A stretch of DNA of 56,975 nucleotides from a virus. The position numbers were made by a program, and so were the translations under genes. The notes beneath the pieces are model-generated. The model made no database searches, was not told where the DNA came from, and saw only the letters and a program-made list of their open reading frames with translations. The stretch covers positions 1-56,975 of IMG/VR virus record IMGVR_UViG_3300020152_000003; one strand, given 5' to 3'. Positions 15,524 through 55,363 of this stretch are shown piece by piece; positions within the stretch are counted from its first letter, which is position 1, and every line of letters starts with the position of its first letter.

Positions 15524-15539
15524 GGGCTGTGTCCTTGGA

Positions 15540-35701: not shown

Positions 35702-35887
35702 ATGAGCCGCACCCCCGCACGCATCACGCAAGCCGACGTCGCTCGAGCCATTCGAGCGGCGCAGCAATGTGGCGCGGGGCAGGTTCGCGTGCTCCCGGAC
35801 GGCTCCATTGCCATCGACCTGACCACTGGGAAGACCGTGGACAATCGGGCTCTCGAGGTTGAAGATGACGAGGAGGTCGTACTTTGA
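35702..35887 (+). CDS. Small protein upstream of int (61 aa), possible excisionase or directionality factor by position
   Basis: ORF overlapping the int start (TGATG). Confidence 0.45.
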   Translation: MSRTPARITQADVARAIRAAQQCGAGQVRVLPDGSIAIDLTTGKTVDNRALEVEDDEEVVL

Positions 35888-36963
35888 TGGACGACATGCC
35901 CCGTCCCCGCCCGCCGCATCTACATCGTGAGCACAACCGCCACGGCAAACCCGTCTGGTATGTCCGGAAGGGCAAGGGCGAGCGCATCAGGATCAAGCAC
36001 GAATACGGCACGCCAGAGTTCACCGAAGCCTATGAGGCGGCGATAGCCGGCCAGACCGTGAAGCCTGCTGAGAGGGCCGCCAAGGGCTCGCTCGAGTGGC
36101 TGTGGATGCTCTACCGGCAGACCAGCGCATGGACCGACCTTTCCATGGCGACCCGCCGCCAGCGCGAGAACATCATGCGCGGCGTCCTCAAGACCGGCGG
36201 CAACCAGCCTCTATCCAAGATCACCGGGAAGGTGATCAAGGCCGGCATCGATCGCCGCAAGGGGCACGCGGCCAGGCATTTCCTCGACACCATGAAGGGC
36301 CTCTACAAGTGGGCTCTCGAGGCCGAGCATGTGAAGCTGGACCCGACCGCTGGCAAAGCCGTAGCGAAGCCGAAAACCAAGGGCTTCCCGGTTTGGGAGG
36401 AGGAGGAGATCATCCAATTTGAGAAGCGCTGGCCTCGAGGCACGCGCGAGCGGGTGATGTTTGACATCTACTGCTACACCGGCCTGCGCCGTGGCGATGC
36501 GGCGGCACTCGGAAAGCAGCACATCAAGAACGGCGTGATCAGCATCGACACCGAGAAAACCGGAACCCGCGTCACCATTCCTGTGCTCGATGTATTGAGG
36601 CAGACGCTCGATGCTGGACCAACCGGGGATCTGGCGTTCATCGCTACTAAGAAAGGCGATCGGCTGACCAAGGAGAGCGTCGGGAATGCCTTCCGGGATG
36701 CCTGCCGCGCCGCCGGCATCAAGAAATCAGCCCATGGCCTGCGTAAGGCCGCGGCGACCAGGGCGGCGAACAACGGCGCCACGGAAGCTCAGCTCGAGGC
36801 GATCTTCGGCTGGGAGGGCGGGAAGATGGCCTCGCTCTACACCCGGACGGCCAACCGGCAGAAGCTGGCTACGGGCGCCATGAACACGCTCGAGAGAACC
36901 GAACCGGAAACTTCTATTCCCGCACCTCAGGGGCAGGTGCGGGCCTCAGGCCAAAAAGAGTAA
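35887..36963 (+). CDS. int: Tyrosine integrase (358 aa)
   Basis: Box I YTGLRRGD; HGLRKAAATRAAN (H-x-x-R); nucleophile in MASLYTRTA. Confidence 0.85.
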   Translation: MDDMPRPRPPHLHREHNRHGKPVWYVRKGKGERIRIKHEYGTPEFTEAYEAAIAGQTVKPAERAAKGSLEWLWMLYRQTSAWTDLSMATRRQRENIMRGVLKTGGNQPLSKITGKVIKAGIDRRKGHAARHFLDTMKGLYKWALEAEHVKLDPTAGKAVAKPKTKGFPVWEEEEIIQFEKRWPRGTRERVMFDIYCYTGLRRGDAAALGKQHIKNGVISIDTEKTGTRVTIPVLDVLRQTLDAGPTGDLAFIATKKGDRLTKESVGNAFRDACRAAGIKKSAHGLRKAAATRAANNGATEAQLEAIFGWEGGKMASLYTRTANRQKLATGAMNTLERTEPETSIPAPQGQVRASGQKE

Positions 36964-37052: not shown

Positions 37053-37604
37053 ATGGACGACATTGAAGCCAAAAAGGAATTTTCAGAGGCGCCCGCACCT
37101 AGCGGGCATCCGGGCTGGGTCTACTTTGTGCGCGCCGGCAGGGCGATCAAGATCGGATACAGCATCGGGGTTCCCAGCCGACTTTCGACTCTTCAGACGG
37201 GCCATTACCAGGAGCTCGAGCTGCTCGTGCAGGTCCCTGGATCACTGCGCGACGAGCGCCGATACCACTTCCTCTTCCGGGCCTTCAAAATCAGGCGCGA
37301 GTGGTTCCGCTCTTGCGACCCGATCTTGGCTGAAGTCGAGCACCTGAAGCGCTACGGGAAACCATCCAAGAAGCCGATCGACGCATTCAAGCCCGAACCG
37401 AAGCCTGAGCGTAGCCCGCTTCTCTATTCGTTGGACTGCAAGTCGCGTCGTGCGCCGAACAAGACTGAACGGATGAAGATCGAACTGCGGATGGCGATGA
37501 TCCGTGACGGCACCGCCGCCGCCTTCGCGGCTCGGCAAGATGCTCTGTTGGGGGTAAAGCCGCGTATTCGGGTGCAGGCGATTACGAGCGAACGCCACAC
37601 CTGA
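37053..37604 (+). CDS. T5orf172 / GIY-YIG-superfamily domain protein (183 aa)
   Basis: GWVYFVRAGRAIKIGYSIGVPSRLSTLQTGHYQELELL...ERRYHFLFRAFKIRREWF. Confidence 0.65.
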   Translation: MDDIEAKKEFSEAPAPSGHPGWVYFVRAGRAIKIGYSIGVPSRLSTLQTGHYQELELLVQVPGSLRDERRYHFLFRAFKIRREWFRSCDPILAEVEHLKRYGKPSKKPIDAFKPEPKPERSPLLYSLDCKSRRAPNKTERMKIELRMAMIRDGTAAAFAARQDALLGVKPRIRVQAITSERHT

Positions 37605-41153: not shown

Positions 41154-42194
41154 ATGTTTCAGCCGCGCAATATTATTGGCGCCGAGACGGCGACAAAACC
41201 GTATTACCCCGCGTTCGATTTCCTGAGAGCCGGCGCTGCGCTTGGCGTATTCCTGAGTCATGCTCAATTTCGCGATCTGCTCCCGCACGAATTCGGCAAC
41301 GCCTGCGTCCAAGTGTTCTTCGCGCTGAGCGGTTTCCTGATCGGTGGGATTCTTCTAGAAACCCGCCCGAAGGACCTGCCGAAGTTCTACTTCAACCGCA
41401 CTATGCGGATCTGGATCCCGTACTGGGTCGCGTTCACGATCATCTTTGCCCTCACCGCCGCAAAGCAAGGACTAGGTGACTCGAAGTTTTTCGAGTTCTT
41501 CTTTTACGATTTGACCTTCGTCTACAATTGGTTCGGACCGCCTCAGCTTGCCGAATTCCGGCACCGGATGCCTCTTGAGGGGACTGGTAATCACTTCTGG
41601 TCGATTTGCGTAGAGGAACAGTTCTATCTTTTAGCTCCGCTCTTTTTGATTTTCCTACCGCGCGTCGCGGCTGCTGTTGGCTTGCTCGCGCTGGTCGCTG
41701 TTAACTTCTGGCAACCCCACCACTTCGCCGCAATCTCTCTTGGTGTCATCGTTGCGCTCGCGGGTGAACGACGGTTAGTGGCTGGAGTTATGATGGCGTG
41801 CGCCGGATTGGTGGGCGCCCTCTTCTTCAGCTACGAGCAGTGGATGCCGTTCCTGTCCGCAGCAATCGTAGCGGCGTGCTCATGGCGAGGGCCGCAGTTG
41901 CCAGGAGGCGCGCTCTTAGGTGGCGCATCCTACGCGTTTTACCTGAATGGCTGGATAGGGTTGTTCATCGCCTCATCTCTTGAGCGCCGGATGGGCCTTC
42001 CCTCAACGGTCGGTTTTATGCTGGCGATTTCCGTGAGCTCGTTGATTGCCCTATCCCACTATCAGTTCATCGATCGCGAGATCATGAAACGACGCGGTCG
42101 ATATTTTTCTGATCGAGTCGGCTTGGTGTGTTGTGCCGCAGGCTTTTTGCTCGTGGCCTCCGGAGTCATGGGAGGCGTTTACTTCTTTAGATAG
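41154..42194 (+). CDS. Acyltransferase family 3 membrane protein (O-antigen/polysaccharide O-acetylase-like, 346 aa)
   Basis: FDFLRAGAALGVFLSH, VQVFFALSGFLIG and HFWSICVEEQFYLLAPL, with about 10 TM segments. Confidence 0.8.
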   Translation: MFQPRNIIGAETATKPYYPAFDFLRAGAALGVFLSHAQFRDLLPHEFGNACVQVFFALSGFLIGGILLETRPKDLPKFYFNRTMRIWIPYWVAFTIIFALTAAKQGLGDSKFFEFFFYDLTFVYNWFGPPQLAEFRHRMPLEGTGNHFWSICVEEQFYLLAPLFLIFLPRVAAAVGLLALVAVNFWQPHHFAAISLGVIVALAGERRLVAGVMMACAGLVGALFFSYEQWMPFLSAAIVAACSWRGPQLPGGALLGGASYAFYLNGWIGLFIASSLERRMGLPSTVGFMLAISVSSLIALSHYQFIDREIMKRRGRYFSDRVGLVCCAAGFLLVASGVMGGVYFFR

Positions 42195-42198
42195 ATCA

Positions 42199-44703
42199 TC
42201 AATTTGCGCTGTAGGCTTGGAAGCCGTAATAGGTCTGGTACGGCGATTGCGCCAGCCCACAGCCAGACACGATCGCGTATATCGATGAGCACCCCAGCAC
42301 GAACTGGGACGGCGTCTGGGAGTGGGTCATGATCCCAAACGTGGCCTGCATGGCAGCGTCCGTGCCCATAAACCACTTGAAGAAAGCAACCTGCGTCGCG
42401 TTGGCGAGCGCAGAGTTTTTCCAGTTCTCGATGGCAGTCGCCACGTCAGCCGCGCACTGTGCATTGCTAACGCCCGTTACCCCGATGGTCGCACACTGTG
42501 CAGCGCTTGGACCAACTGACTCCAGGTTGGCTTCGTAGTGCTCCACCCTCAGAGGCGCCAAACTGCCGCGGGTTGGGTCGAACGCCGCAGCGACCGGCTC
42601 CCATTTTGCTGCGATCTGATTCGTCACCCAGAGCATGCTGGAGAACGGGGCCGACCCGACCGAAACCGTTCCGCTTCCTTGGGTGCCAGCGTTCACGTTT
42701 GAGCCGGCTGGGGAGCCCTGACTGTAGGCCTTGATCGTGAACGTGCTCGTGGTCGGCGTGCTTGAGACTTGATAGAGCATTCCGGGCACAAGTCCGCTAT
42801 AGCTTGTGCCGCCCGTCACCGAGAAGATCACGTTGGTAGAGTTGGCGGTGAACCCGTGCGCGGTTGGGGTGGCGAATGTCGTCCCGGACGTGTTGGCCGT
42901 ATCAAGATTTTGAACCAGTTGACGACCTTGCCGCAGGTCGTCATCAACCAAGGCGTTCGCTGTCGCCGTGTCCCCTGCCTCGACGGCATTTACCAGCGCC
43001 TGATAGAACGGCAACATGTTAGAGTTGACTGCGCAGCCCGTGTAGGAATCCGGCCCGAAGCAGATGTTGTTGCCGGTCACATAAGGGGCGTAGCCAATCG
43101 ATTCTGCGTAATCGACAGGTCGGTTGCCGACCTGGGTATAGTCGGCGCCACCCGAACATGCGCTGCCGTTCCACGTGCCACCGGTGTACGTGCAGTAGAG
43201 AGAGTTCCCCGTGCCGGTGCTAGTTCCCGACGGCGCCAGATCAGCGCCTGCAAGTCGGTACGTCTGAATCTGCGATACTGGCGCAGCGCCTTGGAACATC
43301 AGGCTCCGCCTGAGCCTGCTCGTCCCCCCAAACACCGCTGTCACATTGCCCATGATCTGCCGCGACCGGAGCGCGTAGTAGCTGTACATCGGCCGGGTCG
43401 CGAAACTCGCAGGGAAGCCTAAAGCAGTCCCGCGGAGTGTCGCCCAGTTCGTGACATTATAGCCATTGTTCCAAATCTCATTTCCCCACTCGAAATAGGA
43501 CAAGAGATCGCTGCGGAGCCCTGCCAGAACTTTTTGCGCTAGGTTCGTCACATAGTCATCGTCTGCCCATTGTGGGACGACAACCCACGGGTGGCATCCG
43601 ACCAGATTCGCGAATTGCACCTGCGCCTCGACCGGCACAGATCCAAAAATTCCACCGCCGGCGCCACTTAAAGCCCCCGCGTAGATGAACTTGTCCAGAA
43701 GCTCGTCGTACACGAATGTCGCCAGTTGCCCCGCGACCATGTTGCCAGCGGTCATCGTTGCGGCGTTGATCTTTACAATCGTTTTCGCGGGCCAAGACCC
43801 GGCCTGCAATGTCGGAGTCGTGGAGGTGTTGGTGTTGGTGAGCAAACCAACGATGGTGGCACCATCAGTGGGTGAGGATGGGAAATCCGTTGACGCTGCT
43901 ATCGTGTAGGTATCCGTGCCGGAGATCGTTCCTCCCCAAGCTCCCGGCGGCACAGTCCCTTCACCGTTGCCCCACATCAGAGACGTTGGACTGACACGGT
44001 AGCGCCACTGGACCTCACTGCTGAAGCTGGCCGGGGCTTTCTGCACCCATCCCATGAAGCGGCACGTTCGTGGTCTCAGGGCGCTTACAAGCGAAATCGC
44101 TTCCGGAGTGAAATACCTTCCCGCTTGATATGCGACCTCGTCGCTGACGCGGTACATCGCTATCTCAGTGCCGAGCGTATGCGAATAGGTGCCGCTGTTC
44201 AGGAAGGTGATGTTGGGCTGCGCGTCCGTGAACTGAAATGTGACCGACCCACCTGCGCTGCCTGCCGTCGTGAACGTTGCACTTCCGCCAGAACAACCTG
44301 ACACTGTTACGTTGGTGGCGCCGGTGCAGTTGCTTACGGTCATATTCAACCGCATGGTGAACTGCGTCCCGGCAGGCCAGACCAGCTTATAGGGGACGTT
44401 TGTGAACGCGCTCGGCGCACTCGTCGTGCCGGGGAACGCCAGCAGAATGTTTGCCGCTGGCGTCGATGTGAAATAGCCCTCAGCGTCCAGCTTGCTGATG
44501 TCGGCAGCGGACATACTGTTGACGGTCATGCGACCGGCCTTCAGGATATTGATAAAGTTTCCTGGGCCGATATCGCTGCCGTTAAGGCCAATTTGCGCTT
44601 TGCCTGGCTGAAGGTTGGCAGCGCCACGAACCCAACTCAGTGCCGGCTGAGACCATGAAAGTATGGCAGCGAGAATTAGAGCGCACGATAAGCGGACTCG
44701 CAT
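42199..44703 (-). CDS. Exported large protein with a clan-GH-A-like glycosidase motif (834 aa): candidate polysaccharide depolymerase
   Basis: Signal peptide MRVRLSCALILAAILSWSQPALS/W. The motif SYFEWGNEIWN (Asn-Glu acid/base type) follows a beta-rich N-terminal region. TGATG-coupled start at 44703. Confidence 0.55.
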   Translation of the reverse strand: MRVRLSCALILAAILSWSQPALSWVRGAANLQPGKAQIGLNGSDIGPGNFINILKAGRMTVNSMSAADISKLDAEGYFTSTPAANILLAFPGTTSAPSAFTNVPYKLVWPAGTQFTMRLNMTVSNCTGATNVTVSGCSGGSATFTTAGSAGGSVTFQFTDAQPNITFLNSGTYSHTLGTEIAMYRVSDEVAYQAGRYFTPEAISLVSALRPRTCRFMGWVQKAPASFSSEVQWRYRVSPTSLMWGNGEGTVPPGAWGGTISGTDTYTIAASTDFPSSPTDGATIVGLLTNTNTSTTPTLQAGSWPAKTIVKINAATMTAGNMVAGQLATFVYDELLDKFIYAGALSGAGGGIFGSVPVEAQVQFANLVGCHPWVVVPQWADDDYVTNLAQKVLAGLRSDLLSYFEWGNEIWNNGYNVTNWATLRGTALGFPASFATRPMYSYYALRSRQIMGNVTAVFGGTSRLRRSLMFQGAAPVSQIQTYRLAGADLAPSGTSTGTGNSLYCTYTGGTWNGSACSGGADYTQVGNRPVDYAESIGYAPYVTGNNICFGPDSYTGCAVNSNMLPFYQALVNAVEAGDTATANALVDDDLRQGRQLVQNLDTANTSGTTFATPTAHGFTANSTNVIFSVTGGTSYSGLVPGMLYQVSSTPTTSTFTIKAYSQGSPAGSNVNAGTQGSGTVSVGSAPFSSMLWVTNQIAAKWEPVAAAFDPTRGSLAPLRVEHYEANLESVGPSAAQCATIGVTGVSNAQCAADVATAIENWKNSALANATQVAFFKWFMGTDAAMQATFGIMTHSQTPSQFVLGCSSIYAIVSGCGLAQSPYQTYYGFQAYSAN

Positions 44704-45644
44704 CAAAACGGTCCCCAGAACGAGAGTTGGTTGGAATTCAGGGCCGATCGCACGCTGGTGTTGTCCGCTGACCATACCCCGGACTCATTCCATTGATACG
44801 TTGGGCCAGCACCGCCCCCGCTGATATTTATCTGGGCGCCCCCAATGGCTCCCGTCCCAGGATTAATTGTCGTGCTGGTGCCGCCATTCGAACAGCTCGC
44901 TCCGACTGATCCGCCGCAAAAGAACGTACTACTTGCGCCGTTTAATACCACATTGAACGCATGCCACGATCCGTCGGTGACGTTACCGATGCTGGCACCC
45001 GCGCCGGAAAATACGCGGGCCGTGTTGGCCGACGAACTAAAGCCAAACTGCGCGGTCGAAGAGATGAAACTTACAGTTTGCCCGCCGACAACGCTCCGAG
45101 ACCCTACATACGACACTGAGTATATCTGGTTGACGGCGGTGAAGTTTCCTGTGGCTGCGAACATCGTCTGGGTAGACGTAAAAACAAGGCATGGCAACGA
45201 ATTGATGCAATTCCACGTCAGGGTCGGCCGATTTGAGTTTGTCCCCTGCGTAAGATTGCAGGCCGCTCCAGTGCAATTAAGCGCCCCGCTTTGGTCGTAG
45301 AGCGTCGCCACCCTGCAAGTGTTGCTGGTCGTGCAGTCGTTTGAGCCAAGCGTTCCTGGACTGTTGAGGCGCCCGGTCGTTGCGTTTGTCAGGATGTCTG
45401 TGCAATTGGCGCCGGTATCGTCGCAGAGGTTGATGGCTCGCGTGCCGGCTGTGGCAGCGCTCATCGCCCGCAGGCCCCACCAGACCTTGGGTGAAGCCGC
45501 GATGTCTGCGGGGCCGACGTAGGTCGCGGCCGCCCCCGCGCTCCCCGCCCCCAGCAGCGTCATAGACCCCGCCCACGCCTTCACAGGCGCCAGCGCAATC
45601 CAGACCGCCAGGAACAGGCTGGCGGTTCTTTGAAAGAAGCGCAT
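44703..45644 (-). CDS. Exported Cys-rich beta-sandwich (LamG/ConA-like?) protein (313 aa)
   Basis: Signal peptide MRFFQRTASLFLAVWIALAPVKAWA/G. ATLYDQSG...RPT motif. ATG 45644 lies 6 nt after GAGGTG. Confidence 0.5.
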   Translation of the reverse strand: MRFFQRTASLFLAVWIALAPVKAWAGSMTLLGAGSAGAAATYVGPADIAASPKVWWGLRAMSAATAGTRAINLCDDTGANCTDILTNATTGRLNSPGTLGSNDCTTSNTCRVATLYDQSGALNCTGAACNLTQGTNSNRPTLTWNCINSLPCLVFTSTQTMFAATGNFTAVNQIYSVSYVGSRSVVGGQTVSFISSTAQFGFSSSANTARVFSGAGASIGNVTDGSWHAFNVVLNGASSTFFCGGSVGASCSNGGTSTTINPGTGAIGGAQINISGGGAGPTYQWNESGVWSADNTSVRSALNSNQLSFWGPF

Positions 45645-45654
45645 GGGCATCACC

Positions 45655-47004
45655 TCAGAATTGCTGATAGCTGACGGAGCCGGACATCTGCACCGCGGCC
45701 GAGGTCGTGACGCACAGGGCATTGCCGGCGGGGACTACGAGGACGGCCCCGACGCCGTTGCCCTTGGCGATGCCGGCCTGTGCCGTGAGATTGTAGGCAC
45801 CGGTCAGCGAGGTTGTGCCCGTGCCGCAGTTCGATCCCGTGCCATAGACGAAGGTGATGTTGCCCGTGCCGCCGGCGATCACGTCGAACGAGGTCACGTA
45901 AATCTTGGTGGTGCCGGACAGCGCGACTAGCTGGGTGGTGGTGGCCGTCGAGACGTTGATTGCGACGGAGGCCGGGGTGGCGCCGCCCTTGGAGGGATCG
46001 GCTCCAACCGTACCGATGGAATTGCTGCCGGCCGGAATCGACGCCTGCACGTTGGTGTTGATGCTCGTGGCATTCTGGTTGCCGCGCTTGATCAGGGCGA
46101 TGGCCGAACAGGTGCCGGTATCCGTGCCGCAAGCTGCGTCCGCCTGACTACCGAGGTCGACCATCGCGCCGGACGCGATCGAGCCTGAGGCGTAGGCACC
46201 TGAGGCAACCGATCCGGAGACCATCGTCGGCGCCGTCGTCAGCCGGTTCGAGGCGTCGACATTAGCCCCGCGCGCGTTGCCGGCGGCGTCCCGGATGATG
46301 CTGAACGCGCCACTGGTCGAGCCCCGGGCGCGATCATAGGTCGACCCGTTCCAAAGCCACGACGCCACCGCCGCCGTGTTGTTGCCGTTGACGCCGTCCG
46401 CCAGCGCGATTGCGGCCAGCCACGCCTTCATGTTCGTGCCGTCGGAGATACCGATGGCCGTGCCATTTGCCGGGAAGGCCGCGTCGAAGGCGGAGGATGT
46501 GCCACCACCGCCGCCAGAGCCACCACCGCCGCCACCCGTGCCTGTCGGCAGGCCGGAGCCGCCCACCATGTTCACGGTGGTGGTCGAGCTCGAGGTGATG
46601 CAGGTCAGCTGGGTGTTGGCGCCGACAGTGAACGCGAACCAGCCGCCATGCGGGGCGATATACTGGTCGCTCGTGGTGGCACTTGCGCCGAGCTTGCAGT
46701 AGGCGCCGTTGGTGGTGCCGACGTTGGTGGCCACGACCACCGCCCCAGCCGGGAGCGAACCCGTCACGCCGCCTGTGGTAGCGGTAATCGGCGTGCCGGT
46801 CGTCGCAGGTGCAAACCCAGAGATCGACGCGGAGACCGACGCTGCGGTGCAGAGCGTTCCGGTCGCGTCAACGGTCAGGAACGGCACGTTGTAGTCGCCG
46901 GAGCCGCAGCTTGTGACCTTGATCAGGTTAAGAGACTGTGCGTTCGCATTTCCGACCATGCCCGCAAAGCAAAGCAAGGCCGTCGCAAGCAGTTTGCGCA
47001 GCAT
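45655..47004 (-). CDS. Exported two-domain beta-rich protein with a poly-Gly linker (449 aa)
   Basis: Signal peptide MLRKLLATALLCFAGMVGNANA/Q. Central GTGGGGGGSGGGGGTS linker. The C-terminus ends ...SGSVSYQQF. Confidence 0.55.
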   Translation of the reverse strand: MLRKLLATALLCFAGMVGNANAQSLNLIKVTSCGSGDYNVPFLTVDATGTLCTAASVSASISGFAPATTGTPITATTGGVTGSLPAGAVVVATNVGTTNGAYCKLGASATTSDQYIAPHGGWFAFTVGANTQLTCITSSSTTTVNMVGGSGLPTGTGGGGGGSGGGGGTSSAFDAAFPANGTAIGISDGTNMKAWLAAIALADGVNGNNTAAVASWLWNGSTYDRARGSTSGAFSIIRDAAGNARGANVDASNRLTTAPTMVSGSVASGAYASGSIASGAMVDLGSQADAACGTDTGTCSAIALIKRGNQNATSINTNVQASIPAGSNSIGTVGADPSKGGATPASVAINVSTATTTQLVALSGTTKIYVTSFDVIAGGTGNITFVYGTGSNCGTGTTSLTGAYNLTAQAGIAKGNGVGAVLVVPAGNALCVTTSAAVQMSGSVSYQQF

Positions 47005-47027: not shown

Positions 47028-47462
47028 TTAGAGGGACTTTTTCCAGTACAGACTGGCCTCGAAGGCCCAGCGCACTTCAGGCTCAAAGAGCCGGTATCCG
47101 GCGCGGATAAAGTTGTTTGCCGAATAGACAGTGTTGGTGGTTTCGCTAATCAGGTGCGTCCAGCCGATTGCCCGCGCCTTGCGCTCGCGCACCTTGAAAA
47201 ACTTTAGTTGCAGCCCATGGCCGCGATGACCTGCCGTCACCCCCGCCCGCTTCAGATATCCGGTGCTCTTGTATCGCTGCGACGGCACCATGCCGGCAAA
47301 GCCGACCGGCTCCTTGTCGAGATAGGCCAGCCACCAATAGCAGTGAAAGCCGTCGAGCTCGCTGTCGGCAAGATCAGGGAAATCCCCGGTCTCGCGGTTG
47401 AACGCGCGGATGATGTCAGCGACTTCGTCATCGCTCGCATCCACCTCGCGGATTCGATACAC
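47028..47462 (-). CDS. GNAT-family N-acetyltransferase (144 aa)
   Basis: GVTAGHRGHGLQLKFFKVRERKARAIGW (the R/Q-x-x-G-x-G/A acetyl-CoA motif region), plus NNFIRAGY. Confidence 0.7.
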   Translation of the reverse strand: MYRIREVDASDDEVADIIRAFNRETGDFPDLADSELDGFHCYWWLAYLDKEPVGFAGMVPSQRYKSTGYLKRAGVTAGHRGHGLQLKFFKVRERKARAIGWTHLISETTNTVYSANNFIRAGYRLFEPEVRWAFEASLYWKKSL

Positions 47463-47463
47463 G

Positions 47464-48513
47464 CTACGCCCTCGCCCGTTTCCAGGTTAGAAACTCCGAA
47501 GCCTCTTCCAGATCGGCAAAGCACCGGATGCGGCCGACGTCCTCGCGCGCTGGATCGATCACCGCCGTGATGGAGGCACCAAACTTCTGGCTCGGATAGC
47601 CAAGTTGGTCCGCGTAGGAGTCGATGAACTTGTATCCGCGCGCCCGGATCAGGTGATAGACGAATCCGCGCTGAGCGTTTTCGCTCTGGTTGATCGCCCA
47701 TTCGTGCTTGTGGCCGCAGGCGAAGATGTCGGCCTGCTCAAGCAGCATGGATGCCTTCTGCGGCCCATGCATCTTGTTCCAGATCGATGAGCCGGGGAAA
47801 TCGTGAGCCGCATGGATGCGGACACGCTGTCCGTTCGGGAACGCGATCTGAAAGCGCGATTGCCAGTCCTCAACCGGGACCGTCGGCCGCGCATTGGCTT
47901 TGATCAGGTACGGGCCATCGTTCCAAGCGTCGTGGTTGCCGAGGATGTGGCAGAGCCATTTGATGTCGCAGTCTTTCAGCAGGTATTTGGCGAGCTTCCA
48001 CGCCTGCTTCTTGGACATTTCCTGGTCGGCATAGAGACGGACGAGGCGTCCAACCCAGTTGTCGGTCAGGTCGCCGATATTCACGGCGTAGAGGCCTTCC
48101 GTGCGCTCCAAGATGCCGATGTCCCGGCGGAGGAGCGGCCAGTTGCAGCCGTTGTTGTCGATGTGCGGGTCACCCATGAAGCAGATAGCCATGGGTTTGT
48201 TGGACTTGACCTTGATCTCCATCCAGCGCCGCGCATCCCGCGCGCTCAGATGGCTCTCAAATCGTTTGCAGGCCTGTTCTATGAGGTCTTCCGCGGGCAG
48301 CTCACTAGACGGCAGGTCCGGGAAAACGATCTCATCGGCCTCTAGAGCCGGCCTCTCGGATAGCCTGCGGTCGTTGTAGAGTTTAGCGCGGTGCTTGAGC
48401 TGCGGCACGGTGATCCCAATCGCCGCGGCGGCCTCCGTCTGGGTCTTGTGCTGCCCCTTCGCCATGAAGGCGTCGCGGCATTGGTCGTCGGTAGGGGTGT
48501 CAAAGAACGCCAT
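47464..48513 (-). CDS. Calcineurin-like metallophosphoesterase with an N-terminal HTH-like segment (349 aa)
   Basis: FMGDPHIDN, NIGDLTDNW, LGNHD and ACGHKHE. N-terminal TQTEAAAAIGITVPQLKHRAKLYN. ATG 48513 lies 2 nt after the upstream stop. Confidence 0.75.
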   Translation of the reverse strand: MAFFDTPTDDQCRDAFMAKGQHKTQTEAAAAIGITVPQLKHRAKLYNDRRLSERPALEADEIVFPDLPSSELPAEDLIEQACKRFESHLSARDARRWMEIKVKSNKPMAICFMGDPHIDNNGCNWPLLRRDIGILERTEGLYAVNIGDLTDNWVGRLVRLYADQEMSKKQAWKLAKYLLKDCDIKWLCHILGNHDAWNDGPYLIKANARPTVPVEDWQSRFQIAFPNGQRVRIHAAHDFPGSSIWNKMHGPQKASMLLEQADIFACGHKHEWAINQSENAQRGFVYHLIRARGYKFIDSYADQLGYPSQKFGASITAVIDPAREDVGRIRCFADLEEASEFLTWKRARA

Positions 48514-48515
48514 TC

Positions 48516-48875
48516 TCAGCCCATCGTCCCGGGCATGAAGCAGCGAATGGCGTAGCCTTCCTCGCCGCCCATCCATTGCGGATAGGTCCAGACCACGGCG
48601 TGACCTGCGCGATTGTGGCCTTCCACGAGCGCTTCAGGCGGGACGTCGTACCATTTGCCTTCGAGGCGGACCCGATAGCGCCCGCCGTCCATGCTCCAGT
48701 CCGGGTCATCAAGCGATGTCCCGTCCTTGCCGTCGCAGCACGCCACTCCGTTCTTGCTGCGCAGGCTCTCAAACCATGGCGTCAGGTCCGGCCTGTTGTG
48801 ATCGTGAGCCTTGACGTTGCCGAGCGTCAGCCCAGCCAGAATCCCCAGCGCGATGCCGGTTGCGGCAATCTTCAC
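48516..48875 (-). CDS. Exported small protein (119 aa) at the distal end of the lysis cassette
   Basis: Signal peptide MKIAATGIALGILAGLTLGNVKA/H. Function unknown. Confidence 0.55.
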   Translation of the reverse strand: MKIAATGIALGILAGLTLGNVKAHDHNRPDLTPWFESLRSKNGVACCDGKDGTSLDDPDWSMDGGRYRVRLEGKWYDVPPEALVEGHNRAGHAVVWTYPQWMGGEEGYAIRCFMPGTMG

Positions 48876-51157: not shown

Positions 51158-53734
51158 TCACCATGCCTTGTTCGATCCGGAGAGGAAAACAACGTCGGTT
51201 GCTGACGCAGCGGTGAAGTTTCCTGCCCCCCCGGCCATGTTGTTGACGACCATGTGGGTGCAGCCATTCTGCGCCATCGGTGGTGACAGCATGAAATTGC
51301 CGAAGGTATTGCCGTTGGGCAGGGTGAAGAGGCCGACGCAATCGACGCCGCCAATCGCGTTGCGCGCGCGAACCATCCCGTTGGCAACGCCGCCGGCGAT
51401 GTTGATTGTGGCTGGGTTGATCACCTGCTCGGAATGGAATCCGCGGATGTCGACGAAGCCGCCGTTGATCGAAAGTCCGTTGGTCCTCGGCCCTCCGATT
51501 CCTGCGGAATATCCGGATACGTTCAAGTTGTCGACGATGACCTGCGTGCTGCCGAAGTTGATGAAGACCTGCGCACCGGCGGCACCGCCGCAGTTCGCAT
51601 CGGACTTGCCGCCCTTGAACTCGGTGCTGTCGAGCAGGATATAGGTGGCGCCCCCATATCCCTGCTCATAGGTCAGTCCGCGCCCGCAGCCGCCGGGATA
51701 GATCACCATCCGCCGCACTCCAGCCTCGTGCTGGGCGTTGTTGGTGTAGACCACGGATCGGCCAGATGAGCCGTTGGTCGCGATCACGTTGAAGATCTGA
51801 AAATCTTCCAGCAGCGTTCCAAAGCACGCCAGGTGCGAGAAGGAATTGCAAAGCTCCCACTGGTTCGAGCTGGTCGGGAATGTGTCGCACATCTTGATCG
51901 TGCTGGCGTAGTTGCCCTGCCCCTTCACCTTCACGCCATAGGGCACGACGATCGCATTTGACGCGGCACACCCGATCATCGCGGTCTGCTTGGCCAGAAG
52001 CACCTGCCCACCCTGCGTGCCGCCAAGGTCAACGCTCGTGCTGGTCTTGTACCAGGCGAAGCTGAACGCGTTCTGCAGCGTCGTGAAGTTGTCGGTCGCC
52101 GCGCCGTCAGTACCGTCCCAATCGAACTTCACGCCCATCGAACGGGCATCGAGGCCGGCGGCGGGGAACGTGATCTGCCACTTGTTGCCGGCCGAGTCCG
52201 TGAACGATCCGGTTGGCGTTGAGACGCTGGAGACCGTCCAGGTCACGGTTGATGCGCAGCCCGGCACCGTCACAGACAGCACGTCGCCTGCAACGTAGCC
52301 GACCGCCATCGCGCCGTTGTAGCCGCCGACGTTGGCGATCGATGTGACGATGTTGCCCGCAACCGTGATCACCCCAGTGGTGCCACCGAGTTCGCCGCGG
52401 CCATTGCCCCCCGTGAAATCGAGCGTGTAATAGGTTCCGTCGGTGCAGCCAGACGTTCCGTTGTTGGTGAGCGTCCCGCCCGTGATGCGGGTGTCGATGA
52501 AATTCCCGGCCGTCTTCTGGAAGATCGCGCCGCCGCCGTCGCCGGCCGCGGAATACCCGAGCGTCTGGATGGAGGAAAAAGCGGACAGGTCCTGCGTCTC
52601 GGCGAAGGTGCGGGAAGACAGCACGTTGCCGGACAATGTCGAGCCGACGACCTTGAAGCTGCCAGCCTGAGCCGAGATCGCGCCGGTAGCGCCGTCGAGC
52701 GAGCTGACGCCTGACGCGACGGTCGCGCCGACGGCTTGTGCGGTCCATTTTGACGCGCCGTCCGACACCAGCAGGAAGCCGCCATTGGCCGAACTGATCG
52801 TAACGCTGGTGCCGCCGTTGATGGTGTCGGATCCGGCTCTGGCGATGACCAGCGTATTGCTGCCTGTGACGGTGCCTTGGAAGTCCGCAACGAGAATGGA
52901 CTGGCCTGGATTTACGGCATTTGCCGCAGGCAGCGTCCATGTCCGCGATGCGGTGAACGCGGCATTGGTGCCGACGACGCGGTCAGTCGCCGCGATGCTG
53001 TAGATGGAGTCGCCGTGACCGGTGAAGCTATCGATGTTGAGCAGCGAGCTCGAGCGCGCCGCGGCGGGTGCCACGTCCGTCGGGACTGCAGACCCACCTG
53101 TCGCGTTGCCCTTGACCGTGTTGGCTGCCATCGTCGCCATCTTGGCATTAGTGACGGCGTTGGCCGCAATCGACGTCGCGTAACTTCCGCCAGACGTCGT
53201 CACGTCACCAGTCAGCGCTCCAAAATTTGATGCCTGAAGCGTTCCGCTGAGTAGCGTGGTCGGCAAGGTGCCTGCGCCTGAAGCCGTGCCGGAAAAGGTC
53301 GGAGACGCGATGGTTGGAGTGTCAATGGCCGCTCCAGACGACATGACGACACTGCCGGTCCCCGTTATGGCATATTCAGCCACTTTCCCGGCGTTGTTGT
53401 AGAGAACGCGCGAGCTTGTCCCGCTGGCGACGTTTGTGATGCCGATGGTGATGGTGTCGGGAGCCGCGCCGCAATCCTGAAGCAGGCCGGTGGTGCCATT
53501 GAAGCAGGCCAGGTTGCCTGACACCACCGGAGCCGTCGGCATGATCGAGTTGATGAGGTCGTTCTGAAACGTGCGGACGCCGGAAGGCGTAATCAGGCCA
53601 GATGTATTATCCGGAAATGTCGTGCTGACTTCTGCGGTAAGCTCTGCCTTGGTTTTCTGCGCGAACGCTGGAGCACCCATAAAAAAAGCCCCGCAGAGCG
53701 GGGCCAGAATAAGCGCCAAAGCAAGTTTTCTCAT
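51158..53734 (-). CDS. Tailspike-like beta-helix protein (pectate-lyase-3-like region, 858 aa) with a signal-peptide-like N-terminus
   Basis: N-terminus MRKLALALILAPLCGAFFMGAPAFA/QKTKAELTAEV...FPDNTSGLITP. Middle LDARSMGVKFDWDGTDGAATDNFTTLQNAF. ATGA overlap with the tail-fibre stop. Confidence 0.6.
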   Translation of the reverse strand: MRKLALALILAPLCGAFFMGAPAFAQKTKAELTAEVSTTFPDNTSGLITPSGVRTFQNDLINSIMPTAPVVSGNLACFNGTTGLLQDCGAAPDTITIGITNVASGTSSRVLYNNAGKVAEYAITGTGSVVMSSGAAIDTPTIASPTFSGTASGAGTLPTTLLSGTLQASNFGALTGDVTTSGGSYATSIAANAVTNAKMATMAANTVKGNATGGSAVPTDVAPAAARSSSLLNIDSFTGHGDSIYSIAATDRVVGTNAAFTASRTWTLPAANAVNPGQSILVADFQGTVTGSNTLVIARAGSDTINGGTSVTISSANGGFLLVSDGASKWTAQAVGATVASGVSSLDGATGAISAQAGSFKVVGSTLSGNVLSSRTFAETQDLSAFSSIQTLGYSAAGDGGGAIFQKTAGNFIDTRITGGTLTNNGTSGCTDGTYYTLDFTGGNGRGELGGTTGVITVAGNIVTSIANVGGYNGAMAVGYVAGDVLSVTVPGCASTVTWTVSSVSTPTGSFTDSAGNKWQITFPAAGLDARSMGVKFDWDGTDGAATDNFTTLQNAFSFAWYKTSTSVDLGGTQGGQVLLAKQTAMIGCAASNAIVVPYGVKVKGQGNYASTIKMCDTFPTSSNQWELCNSFSHLACFGTLLEDFQIFNVIATNGSSGRSVVYTNNAQHEAGVRRMVIYPGGCGRGLTYEQGYGGATYILLDSTEFKGGKSDANCGGAAGAQVFINFGSTQVIVDNLNVSGYSAGIGGPRTNGLSINGGFVDIRGFHSEQVINPATINIAGGVANGMVRARNAIGGVDCVGLFTLPNGNTFGNFMLSPPMAQNGCTHMVVNNMAGGAGNFTAASATDVVFLSGSNKAW

Positions 53735-55353: not shown

Positions 55354-55363
55354 GGAGTAAGCA

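What the first reader, a model, noticed from the sequence alone, without database searches (positions are those of the whole stretch)
42199..47004. Three consecutive large late-strand proteins all carry textbook Sec signal peptides, including a glycosidase-like enzyme
The 449-, 313- and 834-aa proteins begin MLRKLLATALLCFAGMVGNANA/Q, MRFFQRTASLFLAVWIALAPVKAWA/G and MRVRLSCALILAAILSWSQPALS/W. Each has a positive n-region, a hydrophobic core and an AxA-type cleavage site. The largest contains SYFEWGNEIWN, which resembles the Asn-Glu acid/base strand of clan GH-A TIM-barrel glycosidases. The middle one is Cys-rich with a LamG/ConA-like feel (ATLYDQSG). The first has two beta-rich domains joined by a poly-Gly linker. 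They sit downstream of the lysis cassette, the metallophosphoesterase and the GNAT, on the late strand, where receptor-binding or depolymerase proteins would be expected. Virion proteins assemble in the cytoplasm and normally lack cleavable signal peptides. The trio is therefore either a secreted polysaccharide-degrading or polysaccharide-binding module released during infection or by lysogens, or it points to an unconventional route for tail-appendage assembly.
Basis: partly seen in the sequence, partly recalled or inferred. Interest (0 to 1): 0.7.

Follow-up and report, generated by a model that had tools for sequence, protein, structure and literature searches.

The report
Phage exports three sugar-cutting-type proteins
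A temperate P22-like phage ends its late operon with three genes whose products carry real export signals and look built to bind or cut surface polysaccharide, so its "depolymerase"-type proteins probably go into the cell envelope rather than onto the virus particle.

Summary
Three tightly packed minus-strand genes each start with a textbook Sec signal peptide behind a ribosome-binding site: A 45655-47004, B 44703-45644, C 42199-44703. The signals are conserved across each protein family. Cysteines come and go in pairs. Family members without a signal are cysteine-poor (B: median 10 versus 1 Cys). These are independent arguments for export and disulfide folding.

- **C** is modelled as alternating strands and helices, consistent with a TIM barrel. 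Asn408-Glu409 and Tyr541 are invariant and Glu724 is near-invariant, as in clan GH-A. It carries a phage tail-fibre-type insert. Its core is homologous to a gene inside a bacterial exopolysaccharide locus.
- **B** is a GH54/LamG-like beta-sandwich.
- **A** has two jelly-roll domains joined by a flexible linker.

A sister phage replaces half of A plus B and C with a signal-bearing SGNH esterase. In 19 viral contigs, proteins with A's C-terminal domain almost always carry signals and usually precede large signal-bearing proteins, at least four of them with beta-helix-type N-termini.

Best reading (about 0.55): a late-expressed, Sec-exported, non-virion glycan-degrading and glycan-binding module. 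Activity, substrate, timing and absence from virions are untested. I rate it a new variant of phage depolymerases.

The parts
45655..47004 (-). Gene A, 449 aa. Exported two-domain jelly-roll protein, the first gene of the trio.
   Evidence: ORF and RBS. More than 950 homologues. AF2 model.
46939..47004 (-). A signal peptide, aa 1-22 (MLRKLLATALLCFAGMVGNANA/Q).
   Evidence: Translation. 76/80 homologues are flagged as signal-bearing.
46555..46827 (-). A N-terminal jelly-roll domain, aa ~60-150. It is 75-90% identical across many phage contigs.
   Evidence: pLDDT >95. Coverage/identity map. Weak Foldseek hits to viral jelly rolls, CBM4/16 and the BC2L-C lectin.
45973..46554 (-). A Gly-rich, low-confidence linker, aa ~151-344. 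It contains the recombination breakpoint with the sister phage at about aa 228.
   Evidence: pLDDT <50 for 159-271. blastn similarity to L004 ends at window 46321.
45658..45972 (-). A C-terminal jelly-roll domain, aa 345-449. It is a mobile module that also occurs alone as ~135-160-aa signal-bearing proteins.
   Evidence: pLDDT >94. 66% identical to a 138-aa protein of Synechococcus phage Yong-M4-211. Found in 19 IMG/VR loci. The C393/C431 pair co-varies 71/3/6.
44703..45644 (-). Gene B, 313 aa. Exported, disulfide-rich GH54/LamG-like beta-sandwich.
   Evidence: ORF and RBS. 52 homologues. Pfam hits on homologues and a PDB profile hit.
45570..45644 (-). B signal peptide, aa 1-25 (…APVKAWA/G), followed by the mature N-terminal motif GSMTLLGAG.
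   Evidence: The signal plus motif is shared at 76% identity with an otherwise unrelated 255-aa protein in L006.
45261..45530 (-). B region homologous to the N-terminal part of the GH54 alpha-L-arabinofuranosidase B catalytic domain. It includes YDQSG.
   Evidence: Family profile versus PDB 1WD3/6SXR, E=1.2e-6.
42199..44703 (-). Gene C, 834 aa. Exported GH-A-like TIM-barrel protein with an N-terminal beta-sandwich and tail-fibre-type inserts. It is the last gene of the late operon.
   Evidence: ORF and TGATG coupling. Family data. AF2 model, pLDDT 76.
44635..44703 (-). C signal peptide, aa 1-23 (MRVRLSCALILAAILSWSQPALS/W).
   Evidence: Other family members carry Sec- or Tat-type signals.
43675..43938 (-). 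C aa 256-343: tail-fibre-type beta domain (…SGTDTYT…TNTNTSTTPTL…AKTIV…FVYD…) inserted in the enzyme.
   Evidence: The same motif occurs in tail-fibre proteins of IMG/VR loci L011-L015. 42 BFVD matches at E<=1e-3 are mostly ~90-100-residue local alignments to tail-fibre and uncharacterised phage proteins, many at rmsd ~2 A; which part of C they cover was not reported. PDB 9b45 tail fibre.
43477..43482 (-). C Asn408-Glu409: candidate acid/base pair at the end of predicted strand 402-405 (SYFEWGNEIWN).
   Evidence: Invariant in 65 sequences, including the distant relatives. Strand position. Translation check.
42649..42921 (-). C aa 595-685: second inserted beta domain (SGTTFATPTAHGF…TGGTSYSGL…YQVSSTPT…FTIKAY).
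   Evidence: AF2 strands 595-684 with pLDDT ~90. Conserved in the family.
42532..42534 (-). C Glu724: candidate nucleophile after predicted strand 719-722 (RVEHYE; YEGG in the distant relatives).
   Evidence: >=90% conserved. Strand position. Motif in P0014-P0016.
41154..42194 (+). Acyl_transf_3 O-acetyltransferase-like membrane protein. It is convergent with C, with a 4-nt gap.
   Evidence: Pfam E=3.6e-16. PHROG O-acetyltransferase / O-antigen acetylase.
47028..48576 (-). GNAT acetyltransferase (47028-47462) and a metallophosphoesterase-like protein (47464-48576). They lie directly upstream of A in the same gene string, with only 23 nt before A.
51158..53734 (-). 858-aa protein directly after the tail-fibre gene. 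It also has a textbook signal peptide (MRKLALALILAPLCGAFFMGAPAFA/Q), 12 Cys and tail-spike-type domains. It is probably a fourth member of the exported set.
   Evidence: aa 235-338 are 44% identical to the Pam5 tail spike. 98% identical in sister phage L004.

Best explanation
The trio is a phage-encoded, Sec-exported module that acts on host surface polysaccharide and is not part of the virion.

**Proposed sequence of events.**
1. The genes are transcribed as the tail end of the late operon, after the tail-fibre, putative lysis, metallophosphoesterase and GNAT genes.
2. Each product crosses the inner membrane by the Sec pathway.
3. Signal peptidase I removes the signal.
4. The proteins fold in the periplasm with several disulfide bonds.

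**Proposed roles.**
- C is a retaining glycosidase of the clan GH-A type, with Asn408-Glu409 as acid/base and Glu724 as nucleophile. Its catalytic core is related to hydrolase-like genes that sit inside bacterial Wzx/Wzy exopolysaccharide loci. Tail-fibre-type domains grafted onto it probably bind glycan.
- B is a GH54/LamG-type beta-sandwich. It could be a second glycosidase or a lectin.
- A has two jelly-roll domains on a flexible tether. I read it as an accessory binding or adaptor subunit whose C-terminal domain travels with the enzymes.

**Proposed purpose.** In the envelope, and after lysis in the surroundings, the module would cut or strip O-antigen, capsule or EPS. That would free progeny, help spread through the matrix, and destroy receptors on debris.

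**Shown:** gene structure, signal features, their family-wide conservation, cysteine-pair co-variation, fold and motif similarities, and cassette exchange.

**Inferred:** actual export and cleavage, disulfides, enzyme activity, substrate, timing, absence from virions, and the role of A.
For: **Gene structure.** Starts with RBS and TGATG coupling, and only 23 nt between GNAT and A. No promoter-like or convincing terminator-like site separates the trio from upstream late genes.

**Export.**
- Signals are conserved in the families: A 76/80, B 45/52, C 40/65, with two C members carrying Tat-type signals.
- Mature A, B and C have 8, 10 and 12 Cys in close pairs, whereas the capsid protein has none.
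- Cys pairs appear and vanish together. B 124/129: 38 both, 0 one, 14 none. A 103/135: 66/0/14. C 504/516: 12/0/53.
- Signal-bearing members are Cys-rich and signal-less members Cys-poor. B: median 10 versus 1, p=1.7e-4. C: 11 versus 6, p=1.3e-3.

**Enzyme character.**
- N408, E409 and Y541 are invariant, and R215 and E724 are >=90% conserved, across 65 sequences.
- Their positions after predicted strands fit a (beta/alpha)8 layout.
- hhalign gives 98.3% probability to Ideonella P0015. That gene lies between EpsH/EpsI exosortase genes and the GT, Wzx and Wzy genes.
- The B family matches the GH54 catalytic domain and Laminin_G_3.

**Not virion-like.**
- A cleavable signal stands where a particle-binding domain would be.
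- Sister phage L004 keeps the tail-fibre and 858-aa genes at 94% nucleotide identity, but swaps A's C-terminal half plus B and C for a signal-bearing SGNH/GDSL esterase.
- C homologues are again the last late gene next to glycan morons (GT4, TupA ATP-grasp), with a PAP2 gene further upstream in L001.

**Generality.**
- 18 of 19 IMG/VR proteins with A's C-terminal domain have signals.
- Most are followed by large signal-bearing proteins. At least four of these have beta-helix-type N-termini, and one has a weak Pfam Beta_helix hit.
- A cultured cyanophage shows the same pair.

**Context.** The phage also carries Wzy_C and O-acetyltransferase genes.
Against: - No library places C in a glycosidase family. 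PDB Foldseek gave only weak TIM-barrel hits, with E>0.01. The active-site geometry could not be inspected.
- B itself has no Pfam hit, and its catalytic residues could not be mapped onto GH54.
- C and the 858-aa neighbour contain true tail-fibre or tail-spike domains.
- The exchange pattern, a conserved N-terminal half of A with a variable C-terminal half and downstream genes, is the pattern seen in tail-fibre loci.
- Some phages have signal-less B and C (L017). Periplasmic residence is therefore not essential to the families' function.
- Expression timing is inferred only from gene order.
- Signal prediction used a home-made heuristic, not SignalP.
Confidence: 0.55

Rival explanations
1. Lysogenic conversion or superinfection exclusion. 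The trio would be expressed from the prophage and, together with the adjacent O-acetyltransferase and the Wzy_C-like protein, trim or remodel O-antigen or EPS from the periplasmic side. The lysogen would then no longer display the receptor.
For: - The phage is temperate, with an integrase at 35884-36963.
- C is convergent with an Acyl_transf_3 gene, and a Wzy_C gene is present.
- C homologues sit beside glycosyltransferase and ATP-grasp morons, close to the integrase-bearing arm.
- B, C and the acetyltransferase share a lower GC3 (0.66-0.70) than A and the structural genes.
- The bacterial relative P0015 is an EPS-locus gene.
Against: - The genes are translationally coupled to a string of late-strand genes.
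- No promoter-like site was found upstream. The only minus-strand match is at 49205-49178, and the count is below shuffle expectation.
- In other phages the module sits just upstream of the terminase (L007, L017), which is a late position.
Confidence: 0.2
2. Virion appendages assembled by an unconventional route. The signal-bearing proteins, including the 858-aa tail-spike-like one, would be receptor-binding or depolymerase fibres that fold in the periplasm and join particles at or after lysis. Alternatively, the hydrophobic N-terminus would be an uncleaved anchor.
For: - C has tail-fibre-type domains.
- The 858-aa protein has a tail-spike-type domain and directly follows the Collar-domain tail fibre with an ATGA overlap.
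- L001 has a signal-bearing 479-aa protein with tail-fibre repeat motifs.
- The exchange of A's C-terminal half plus downstream genes mimics host-range cassettes.
- Jelly-roll hits include phage cement and turret proteins.
Against: - To my knowledge, no precedent exists for tailed-phage fibres crossing the membrane before assembly.
- A 576-aa signal-less tail fibre is already present.
- A's modules are 75-90% identical across phages with unrelated structural genes. A virion-docking domain would not be expected to behave that way.
- The SGNH replacement in L004 also has a signal.
Confidence: 0.08
3. Auxiliary metabolic genes. The enzymes would be secreted to degrade environmental polysaccharide and feed the infected cell or lysogen, not to act on the host's own surface.
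For: - C is a glycosidase-like, signal-bearing protein from a very large environmental family: 9,083 cluster representatives at E<=1e-3.
- The GH54 relatives of B act on plant arabinans (molecule names).
Against: - Sec export alone reaches only the periplasm of a diderm host.
- The tail-fibre-type domains, the co-location with O-antigen/EPS-modifying genes, the relative inside an EPS locus, and the replacement by esterase or beta-helix proteins typical of tailspikes all point to host surface glycans.
Confidence: 0.07
4. Annotation artefact. The true starts would lie downstream and the hydrophobic N-termini would not be translated or would not work as signals.
For: The public gene call for the identical protein starts at M59 of C (P0001, 776 aa). 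About a third of C-family entries lack a signal.
Against: - Residues upstream of M59 are conserved in homologues.
- RBS or stop-start coupling sits at the long starts.
- Signals are conserved in character across hundreds of divergent homologues.
- Signal presence tracks cysteine content.
Confidence: 0.03

Closest known systems
Virion-bound phage depolymerases (P22/Sf6/HK620 tailspike endoglycosidases; G7C gp63.1 SGNH esterase tailspike) - from general knowledge and review PMC6116005
   Same: - The enzyme classes match those found here and in sister loci: glycosidase, SGNH esterase and beta-helix.
- Tail-fibre-type domains are present.
- The module is exchanged between related phages.
- It is encoded at the end of the structural/late region of a P22-like phage.
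   Different: - Tailspikes have an N-terminal particle-binding domain and fold in the cytoplasm.
- These proteins instead have cleavable Sec signals and paired cysteines.
- They lie beyond the putative lysis genes.
Free (non-virion) phage depolymerases that give plaque halos (PMC6116005, section 3.1: halos result from 'virions and/or free enzymes')
   Same: A soluble enzyme released from the infected cell that acts on capsule or EPS around the plaque is the function proposed here.
   Different: The review discusses signal peptides only for endolysins. I found no description of export of depolymerase-type proteins through Sec, with disulfide folding and an accompanying jelly-roll protein.
Sec-exported and SAR endolysins (fOg44 Lys44; SAR lysozymes) - PMC6116005, section 4.2
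   Same: These are late phage proteins that use the host Sec system and wait in the envelope before lysis.
   Different: Those are peptidoglycan hydrolases of the lysis pathway. A, B and C show no muramidase or amidase similarity and look polysaccharide-directed.
Periplasmic hydrolases or lyases encoded inside exopolysaccharide loci (PslG, a clan GH-A GH39 enzyme; BcsZ; AlgL) - general knowledge
   Same: - They are envelope-located glycan-cleaving enzymes.
- C's catalytic core is homologous to a gene embedded in an exosortase/Wzx-Wzy EPS locus.
- C has the Asn-Glu / Glu signature of clan GH-A.
   Different: No sequence link to GH39 or any named family. C is phage-borne and carries tail-fibre-type inserts and an extra N-terminal beta-sandwich.
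Serotype-converting phage modules (P22 gtrABC, Sf6 Oac, Pseudomonas D3 Oac/Wzy-beta/Iap) - general knowledge
   Same: The phage is temperate, has an O-acetyltransferase-like and a Wzy_C-like gene, and the trio abuts the acetyltransferase.
   Different: Known conversion modules are membrane transferases, polymerases or inhibitors. They are not soluble exported glycosidase-like or lectin-like proteins.
GH54 alpha-L-arabinofuranosidase B catalytic domain (PDB 1WD3; Pfam PF09206) and the LamG/ConA-like superfamily (PF13385)
   Same: The B-family profile aligns over ~90 residues, including the YDQSG motif, at E=1.2e-6. 8 of 52 homologues hit PF09206 and 12 of 52 hit PF13385.
   Different: B itself falls below Pfam detection. 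The rest of the domain aligns insignificantly. Catalytic residues could not be matched, and there is no arabinose-binding domain.

Membership tests
Sec-type (signal peptidase I) signal peptide | Positively charged n-region, a 7-15-residue hydrophobic core, and small uncharged residues at -3/-1 | tested here: met
   A: K/R then LLATALLCFAGMV, ANA/Q. B: R..R then ASLFLAVWIALAPV, AWA/G. C: R.R then LSCALILAAIL, ALS/W. This used a heuristic, not SignalP.
Sec-type (signal peptidase I) signal peptide | Not a lipoprotein signal (no lipobox Cys at +1) and not a Tat signal (no twin-arginine motif) | tested here: met
   None of the three has L-x-[GA]-C before the cleavage site or an RR-x-F-L motif. By contrast, the protein at 15068-15523 has LVGC, and C relatives P0223 and P0229 have SRREFVK and TRRKFL.
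Sec-type (signal peptidase I) signal peptide | The feature is conserved in homologues although the sequence drifts | tested here: met
   A 76/80, B 45/52, C 40/65. 18/19 IMG/VR carriers of A's C-terminal domain.
Sec-type (signal peptidase I) signal peptide | Actual translocation and cleavage | not testable with these tools
   Needs PhoA/Bla fusions or N-terminal sequencing. Indirect support comes from co-varying Cys pairs and the signal/Cys correlation.
Clan GH-A glycoside hydrolase (C) | (beta/alpha)8 barrel fold | tested here: inconclusive
   The AF2 model (pLDDT 76) shows alternating strands and helices through residues ~210-830. PDB Foldseek returned only weak TIM-barrel, GH1, GH26 and GH66 hits, with E>0.01.
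Clan GH-A glycoside hydrolase (C) | Asn-Glu (acid/base) at the C-terminal end of strand 4 | tested here: met
   N408-E409 follow predicted strand 402-405. They are invariant in 65 sequences, including the distant P0014-P0016.
Clan GH-A glycoside hydrolase (C) | Nucleophile Glu at the end of strand 7, plus conserved Arg (strand 2) and Tyr (strand 6) | tested here: met
   E724 follows strand 719-722 and is >=90% conserved. Y541 is invariant and R215 is >=90% conserved. Strand numbering is inferred from the model.
Clan GH-A glycoside hydrolase (C) | Sequence membership in a named GH family | tested here: not met
   No hit in Pfam, PHROGs, NCBIfam or PDB sequences, by single sequence or by profile. 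The only name is a UniRef automatic label, 'GH5 domain-containing', on the distant relative P0015.
Clan GH-A glycoside hydrolase (C) | Glycosidase activity | not testable with these tools
   Needs recombinant mature protein and host polysaccharide.
GH54 / ConA-LamG-like beta-sandwich (B) | Significant match to PF09206 or PF13385, or to a solved member | tested here: inconclusive
   B alone has no Pfam hit at E<=0.1. The family profile hits 1WD3 at E=1.2e-6 over B 39-128. 12/52 homologues hit PF13385 and 8/52 hit PF09206.
GH54 / ConA-LamG-like beta-sandwich (B) | GH54 catalytic Glu/Asp pair | tested here: inconclusive
   The second alignment stretch is insignificant (score -2.8), so the residues cannot be mapped. 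The family's own near-invariant polar residues are D47, R59, D117, Q118, H228 and E287.
Virion tailspike / tail-fibre depolymerase | N-terminal particle-binding domain and cytoplasmic folding | tested here: not met
   The N-termini are signal peptides, and the mature proteins carry co-varying Cys pairs. No PHROG tail family matches A, B or C.
Virion tailspike / tail-fibre depolymerase | Shares domains with bona fide tail fibres | tested here: met
   C aa 256-343. This shows ancestry or a shared binding module, not virion membership.
Moron / lysogenic-conversion gene | Own promoter and terminator, expressed from the prophage | tested here: inconclusive
   No promoter-like site lies directly upstream and no clear terminator brackets the trio. 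A consensus scan cannot exclude non-sigma70 or internal promoters.

The most novel reading that the evidence does not exclude
A, B and C may be one example of a widespread, undescribed phage system. In it, a small exported jelly-roll protein (A's C-terminal domain) would capture the conserved mature N-terminal strand ('x-M-T-L-L-G-A-G') of exported, tail-fibre-derived depolymerases. The resulting extracytoplasmic complex would be built in the periplasm. It would either load onto particles at lysis or act as a free 'second set of spikes'. Part of the phage receptor-binding and depolymerase arsenal would then be assembled outside the cytoplasm.
Probability: 0.12. Interest if true: 0.9.

Novelty: new variant of a known kind. 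Interest (0 to 1): 0.65.

Why it matters
Phage depolymerases are usually treated as virion parts, or as cytoplasmic enzymes spilled at lysis. Signal peptides in tailed phages are discussed mainly for endolysins, spanins and exclusion lipoproteins.

This phage spends about 4.8 kb on depolymerase-type proteins built for Sec export and disulfide folding. With the 858-aa neighbour the total is about 7.4 kb, or 13% of the genome.

The same layout recurs in sister phages, IMG/VR contigs and a cultured cyanophage. The families involved are very large and unnamed.

If the reading is right:
- It adds an envelope-located stage to how temperate phages handle host surface glycans, covering release, spread, receptor destruction or conversion.
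- It explains some 'hypothetical' late genes.
- It offers naturally secretion-competent, disulfide-stabilised glycan-degrading enzymes for antibiofilm use.
- The contrast between signal-bearing Cys-rich and signal-less Cys-poor members is a ready-made test of compartment switching.

Tried and rejected
**Searches that found nothing.**
- Pfam, PHROGs, NCBIfam and PADLOC on A, B and C gave no hits.
- PDB sequence search with single sequences and with the C profile gave only spurious low-complexity or antibody hits.
- megablast and tblastn against 50,697 phage records found nothing for the locus, B or C. A matched only through its C-terminal domain.
- The genome-contig scan with the C alignment gave one weak hit, so host taxonomy stayed unresolved.
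- The search for related loci with the 80-sequence A alignment failed for lack of a conserved stretch. A 12-sequence alignment worked.
- PDB searches with P0015 and P0016 found no solved relative of the catalytic core.
- Five literature searches on exported phage depolymerases, signal-bearing tail fibres and the two cyanophages found nothing on point.

**Searches that gave only weak or partial answers.**
- Foldseek of the whole C model against PDB gave no hit at E<=1e-3, probably because the barrel is interrupted by inserts. Against BFVD only the ~95-aa tail-fibre domain matched.
- Foldseek of A gave only generic jelly-roll similarities.

**Ideas considered and dropped.**
- The two 858-aa ORFs (42199-44775 and 51158-53734) are not paralogues. 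BLASTP gave E=0.78, so the equal length is coincidence.
- A lipoprotein signal for A is unlikely: Cys12 lacks a lipobox.
- A type IV prepilin-like reading of 'G/YMTLLGAG' does not fit: there is no Glu at +5 and the hydrophobic stretch is too short.
- A defence-system reading has no PADLOC support.

Full report
**What the window is.** The 56,975-bp window is essentially a complete temperate P22-like phage genome.
- The proteins identical to A, B and C come from a 56,989-bp metagenome contig.
- PHROG matches identify the large terminase (13033-14382), portal (10891-13026), major head protein (7820-9046), head-closure protein Hc3 (4576-6090), an ejection protein (3014-3958), DnaB-like helicase, primase and an integrase (35884-36963, plus strand).
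- The portal's relatives in cultured phages are P22-type portals of proteobacterial phages.
- Read as a circle, the minus-strand late operon runs from about 23.4 kb down to 1. It then continues from 56,975 down to 42,199.
- The order there is: Collar-domain tail fibre (53731-55461), an 858-aa protein (51158-53734), a run of small membrane proteins and a 240-aa protein (the putative lysis region, not confirmed by any library), a metallophosphoesterase-like protein, a GNAT, and then the three genes of the finding.
- The last gene, C, is convergent with an Acyl_transf_3 / O-antigen-acetylase-like gene, with a 4-nt gap.

- A (47004->45655, 449 aa) starts at an ATG 7 nt after GGAGA.
- B (45644->44703, 313 aa) starts 8 nt after GAGG, just past A's stop.
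- C (44703->42199, 834 aa) starts at an ATG overlapping B's stop (TGATG).
- The N-termini are exactly as quoted. Each has the n/h/c layout of a signal peptidase I substrate, with no lipobox and no twin arginine.
- SignalP was not available, so I used a simple hydrophobicity/charge/-3,-1 rule and leaned on comparative evidence.

**Evidence that the signals are functional.** Four lines point the same way.
1. *Family-wide conservation.* 76/80 A homologues, 45/52 B homologues and 40/65 C-family members are flagged. The four A 'misses' are visibly signals just under my threshold. Two C relatives carry Tat-type motifs (SRREFVK, TRRKFL). The sequences drift while the physical pattern stays.
2. *Start site of C.* Residues 24-58 are conserved in homologues. 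The public gene call that begins at M59 is therefore wrong, and the hydrophobic N-terminus is translated.
3. *Cysteine pattern.* Mature A, B and C have 8, 10 and 12 cysteines, arranged in close pairs. The capsid and two ejection-region proteins have none. Across the alignments the pairs appear and disappear together. B 74/81: 34 both, 1 one, 17 none. B 124/129: 38/0/14. A 103/135: 66/0/14. A 393/431: 71/3/6. C 126/137: 29/1/35. C 504/516: 12/0/53. That is the expected signature of structural disulfides.
4. *Signal presence predicts cysteine content.* B family: median 10 Cys with a signal versus 1 without (p=1.7e-4). C family: 11 versus 6 (p=1.3e-3).

The families therefore exist in an exported, disulfide-rich form and a cytoplasmic, Cys-poor form. 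This phage has the exported form.

**What C looks like.** C has 13 close relatives in the word-indexed search. A profile search found 9,083 cluster representatives at E<=1e-3 and 538 at E<=1e-30. No Pfam, PHROG, NCBIfam or PDB sequence match exists.

The AlphaFold model (pLDDT 76, pTM 0.77) shows:
- an N-terminal beta-sandwich;
- alternating strands and helices from about residue 210 to the end;
- two inserted beta domains, 256-343 and 595-685.

In a 65-sequence alignment that includes three distant relatives, the only invariant columns are N408, E409 and Y541. R215 and E724 are >=90% conserved. N408-E409 follow predicted strand 402-405, and E724 follows strand 719-722. Arg on an early strand, Asn-Glu after strand 4, Tyr on strand 6 and Glu after strand 7 is the clan GH-A pattern (established knowledge).

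The distant relatives share 'EY(A/S)NE(P/V)WN' and a later 'YEGG'. One of them, Ideonella P0015, aligns to the C profile with 98.3% probability. It lies inside an exosortase-type exopolysaccharide locus: Poly_export, Wzz, a tyrosine-kinase-like ATPase, EpsH, EpsI, then P0015, then GT4, GT2, a Wzx-like flippase and Wzy_C.

Whole-chain Foldseek against PDB gave only weak TIM-barrel hits. C works like, and probably is, a GH-A-type glycosidase. Membership in a named family is not shown.

**Tail-fibre ancestry in C.** Residues 256-343 (…SGTDTYT…TNTNTSTTPTL…AKTIV…FVYD…) form a module that recurs, sometimes in tandem, in tail-fibre proteins on IMG/VR contigs. The C model also gives 42 BFVD matches at E<=1e-3, most of them ~90-100-residue local alignments to tail-fibre and uncharacterised phage proteins, many at rmsd ~2 A. 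Its best PDB hit is the Pa193 tail fibre. The tool does not report which part of C these structural matches cover. C is thus a chimera of an EPS-hydrolase-like barrel and phage receptor-binding-type domains.

**What B looks like.** B alone is below Pfam detection. Of its 52 homologues, 12 hit Laminin_G_3 and 8 hit ArabFuran-catal. The catalytic pair could not be mapped, so B may be an enzyme or a lectin.

**What A looks like.**
- A has more than 950 relatives. It is modular: an N-terminal domain (~43-147) and a C-terminal domain (~345-449) are each 75-90% identical in many otherwise different proteins.
- AlphaFold gives two confident beta-sandwiches (pLDDT >95) separated by ~190 low-confidence residues that begin with the Gly run.
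- Foldseek finds only generic jelly rolls: birnavirus VP2, PirA, phage cement and turret proteins, CBM4/16 and the BC2L-C lectin.

**Comparative genomics.**
- *Sister phage L004.* It is 94% identical at the nucleotide level across the tail-fibre and 858-aa genes. It is 87% identical through GNAT and the first ~228 codons of A, and then similarity stops. In place of A's C-terminal half, B and C, it has a different A C-terminus followed by a 427-aa Lipase_GDSL_2 (SGNH) protein that also has a signal peptide.
- *Contig L006.* This unrelated phage contig shares only A, from about codon 62, and the first 40 codons of B. That is B's signal plus 'GSMTLLGAG', after which a different mature domain follows. 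A C-like protein lies downstream.
- *C homologues elsewhere.* In two other phage-like contigs, one of them ~57 kb, C is again the last late gene, convergent with the arm that carries the integrase. Elsewhere C homologues lie beside a GT4 gene or directly upstream of the terminase.
- *IMG/VR.* In 19 loci containing A's C-terminal domain, 18 carriers have signals. The exception is cut by the contig end. Many carriers are just signal plus domain (133-160 aa). The next gene is usually a large signal-bearing protein. At least four of these begin with the 'YYV..G.D.N.GT' motif that I recognise as a right-handed beta-helix N-terminal cap, and one has a weak Pfam Beta_helix hit.
- *Cultured phage.* Synechococcus phage Yong-M4-211 has the same pair. 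A 138-aa signal-bearing protein is 66% identical to A's C-terminal domain. It is followed by a 786-aa signal-bearing protein with no Pfam match, upstream of the endolysin and integrase.

The partner enzymes are therefore the classes known from tailspikes: glycosidase, SGNH esterase and probably beta-helix. Here they carry export signals.

**Other exported and glycan-related genes in the window.**
- The 858-aa protein after the tail fibre starts MRKLALALILAPLCGAFFMGAPAFA/Q and has 12 Cys. Residues 235-338 are 44% identical to the (signal-less) tail spike of Pseudanabaena phage Pam5.
- A 119-aa signal-bearing protein lies in the putative lysis region.
- A 199-aa signal-bearing protein, a lipoprotein (LVGC lipobox) and a Wzy_C-like membrane protein cluster upstream of the terminase.

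**Interpretation.** The best-supported reading is a late-expressed, Sec-exported, disulfide-stabilised, non-virion module that binds and cleaves host surface polysaccharide in the envelope and after lysis.
- Late expression is inferred from the tight packing and the lack of promoter-like or terminator-like sites.
- Signal-less, Cys-poor versions in other phages (L017) suggest the final site of action is outside the cell. Export would then be a variant strategy, giving oxidative folding or early access to envelope glycans.
- The main rival is prophage-expressed surface conversion or exclusion, together with the acetyltransferase and Wzy-like genes.
- A virion role through an unconventional assembly route has no direct support. 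It is kept alive by the tail-fibre domains and by the tail-fibre-like exchange pattern.

**Comparison with the literature.** A 2018 review of phage cell-barrier enzymes attributes plaque halos to 'virions and/or free enzymes'. It treats signal peptides only in the context of exported and SAR endolysins (PMC6116005). My searches found no description of Sec-exported depolymerase-type modules. I therefore rate this as a new variant of a known kind, phage polysaccharide depolymerases, involving three large unnamed families.

**Unexplained.**
- Why A's two jelly-roll modules are so strongly conserved across unrelated phages.
- What the conserved mature N-terminal motif (x-[ML]-T-L-L-G-A-G) of many partner proteins does.
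- What the substrate is.

Noticed in passing
window 51158-53734 (-): The 858-aa protein directly after the Collar-domain tail fibre (ATGA overlap) also has a textbook signal peptide (MRKLALALILAPLCGAFFMGAPAFA/Q), 12 Cys and a domain 44% identical to the Pam5 tail spike. It is 98% identical in sister phage L004. L001 has a signal-bearing 853-aa protein in its late gene string; BLAST detected no similarity to the 858-aa protein.
   Followed up: partly
window 15068-17515 (-): A surface-related gene cluster lies upstream of the terminase. It holds a Wzy_C (O-antigen ligase/polymerase-like) membrane protein (16493-17515), a 199-aa signal-bearing protein (15540-16139) and a probable lipoprotein starting at M25 of ORF 15068-15595 (MKLSRKLALAILALVGC, LVGC lipobox).
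   Followed up: partly
window 48516-48875 (-): A 119-aa protein with a signal peptide (…LTLGNVKA/HD) sits between the small membrane proteins and the metallophosphoesterase gene. It has no family match. Its stop region overlaps the longest metallophosphoesterase ORF, whose true start is probably M22 (48513).
   Followed up: no
window 44527-44703 (-); protein P0001: The public gene call for the identical protein starts at M59 (776 aa). That drops the signal peptide and 35 conserved mature residues. Such miscalls may hide signals in part of the C family.
   Followed up: yes
window 45543-45569 (-) and partners in L006, L018, L026, L028, L030, L031, L037: Many proteins encoded right after an A-type gene start their mature chain with a short hydrophobic, Gly-rich motif (GSMTLLGAG, GYMTLLGAG, SLLLTGVGG, YLLLTAAG), whatever fold follows. 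The recombination breakpoint between the window and L006 lies just after it. It may be a docking or sorting motif.
   Followed up: partly
L017 1854-5059; B-family P0172, P0174, P0175, P0179, P0184, P0185: Signal-less versions of B and C exist. In L017 both lie directly upstream of the terminase. They are strikingly Cys-poor (0-3 Cys versus ~10). This indicates that family members have switched between the exported and the cytoplasmic form.
   Followed up: yes
C-family proteins P0005, P0193, P0201, P0204, P0213, P0214, P0222: Several C-family members end with a conserved extra tail, 'NWLLKRDLDPASNDNDPMWLEKAA'. The window protein lacks it. It might be a C-terminal sorting or interaction tag.
   Followed up: no
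L004 8682-10645 versus window 42199-46320: The sister phage replaces A's C-terminal half plus B and C with a different A C-terminus plus a signal-bearing SGNH/GDSL esterase. It also lacks the O-acetyltransferase found next to C here. An acetyl-adding gene in one phage corresponds to an acetyl-removing-type gene in the other.
   Followed up: partly
L003 (contig ERZ25039537 contig_47926), gene 8001-10133: A 710-aa protein with A-type domains lies in a non-phage, IS-rich chromosomal region near EpsG, an asparagine-synthase-like gene and type II secretion pseudopilin genes. A-type domains are therefore not restricted to phages.
   Followed up: no
window 42199-44775 and 51158-53734: The two longest stop-to-stop ORFs on this arm have exactly the same length (858 codons) but are unrelated (BLASTP E=0.78). 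This is coincidence.
   Followed up: yes
window 41154-45644: B, C and the convergent acetyltransferase have lower third-position GC (0.66-0.70) than A (0.82-0.84) and the structural genes (up to 0.93). This hints at a more recent or foreign origin for this block.
   Followed up: partly
window 37053-37604 (+): A T5orf172/MUG113-domain protein is encoded just downstream of the integrase.
   Followed up: no
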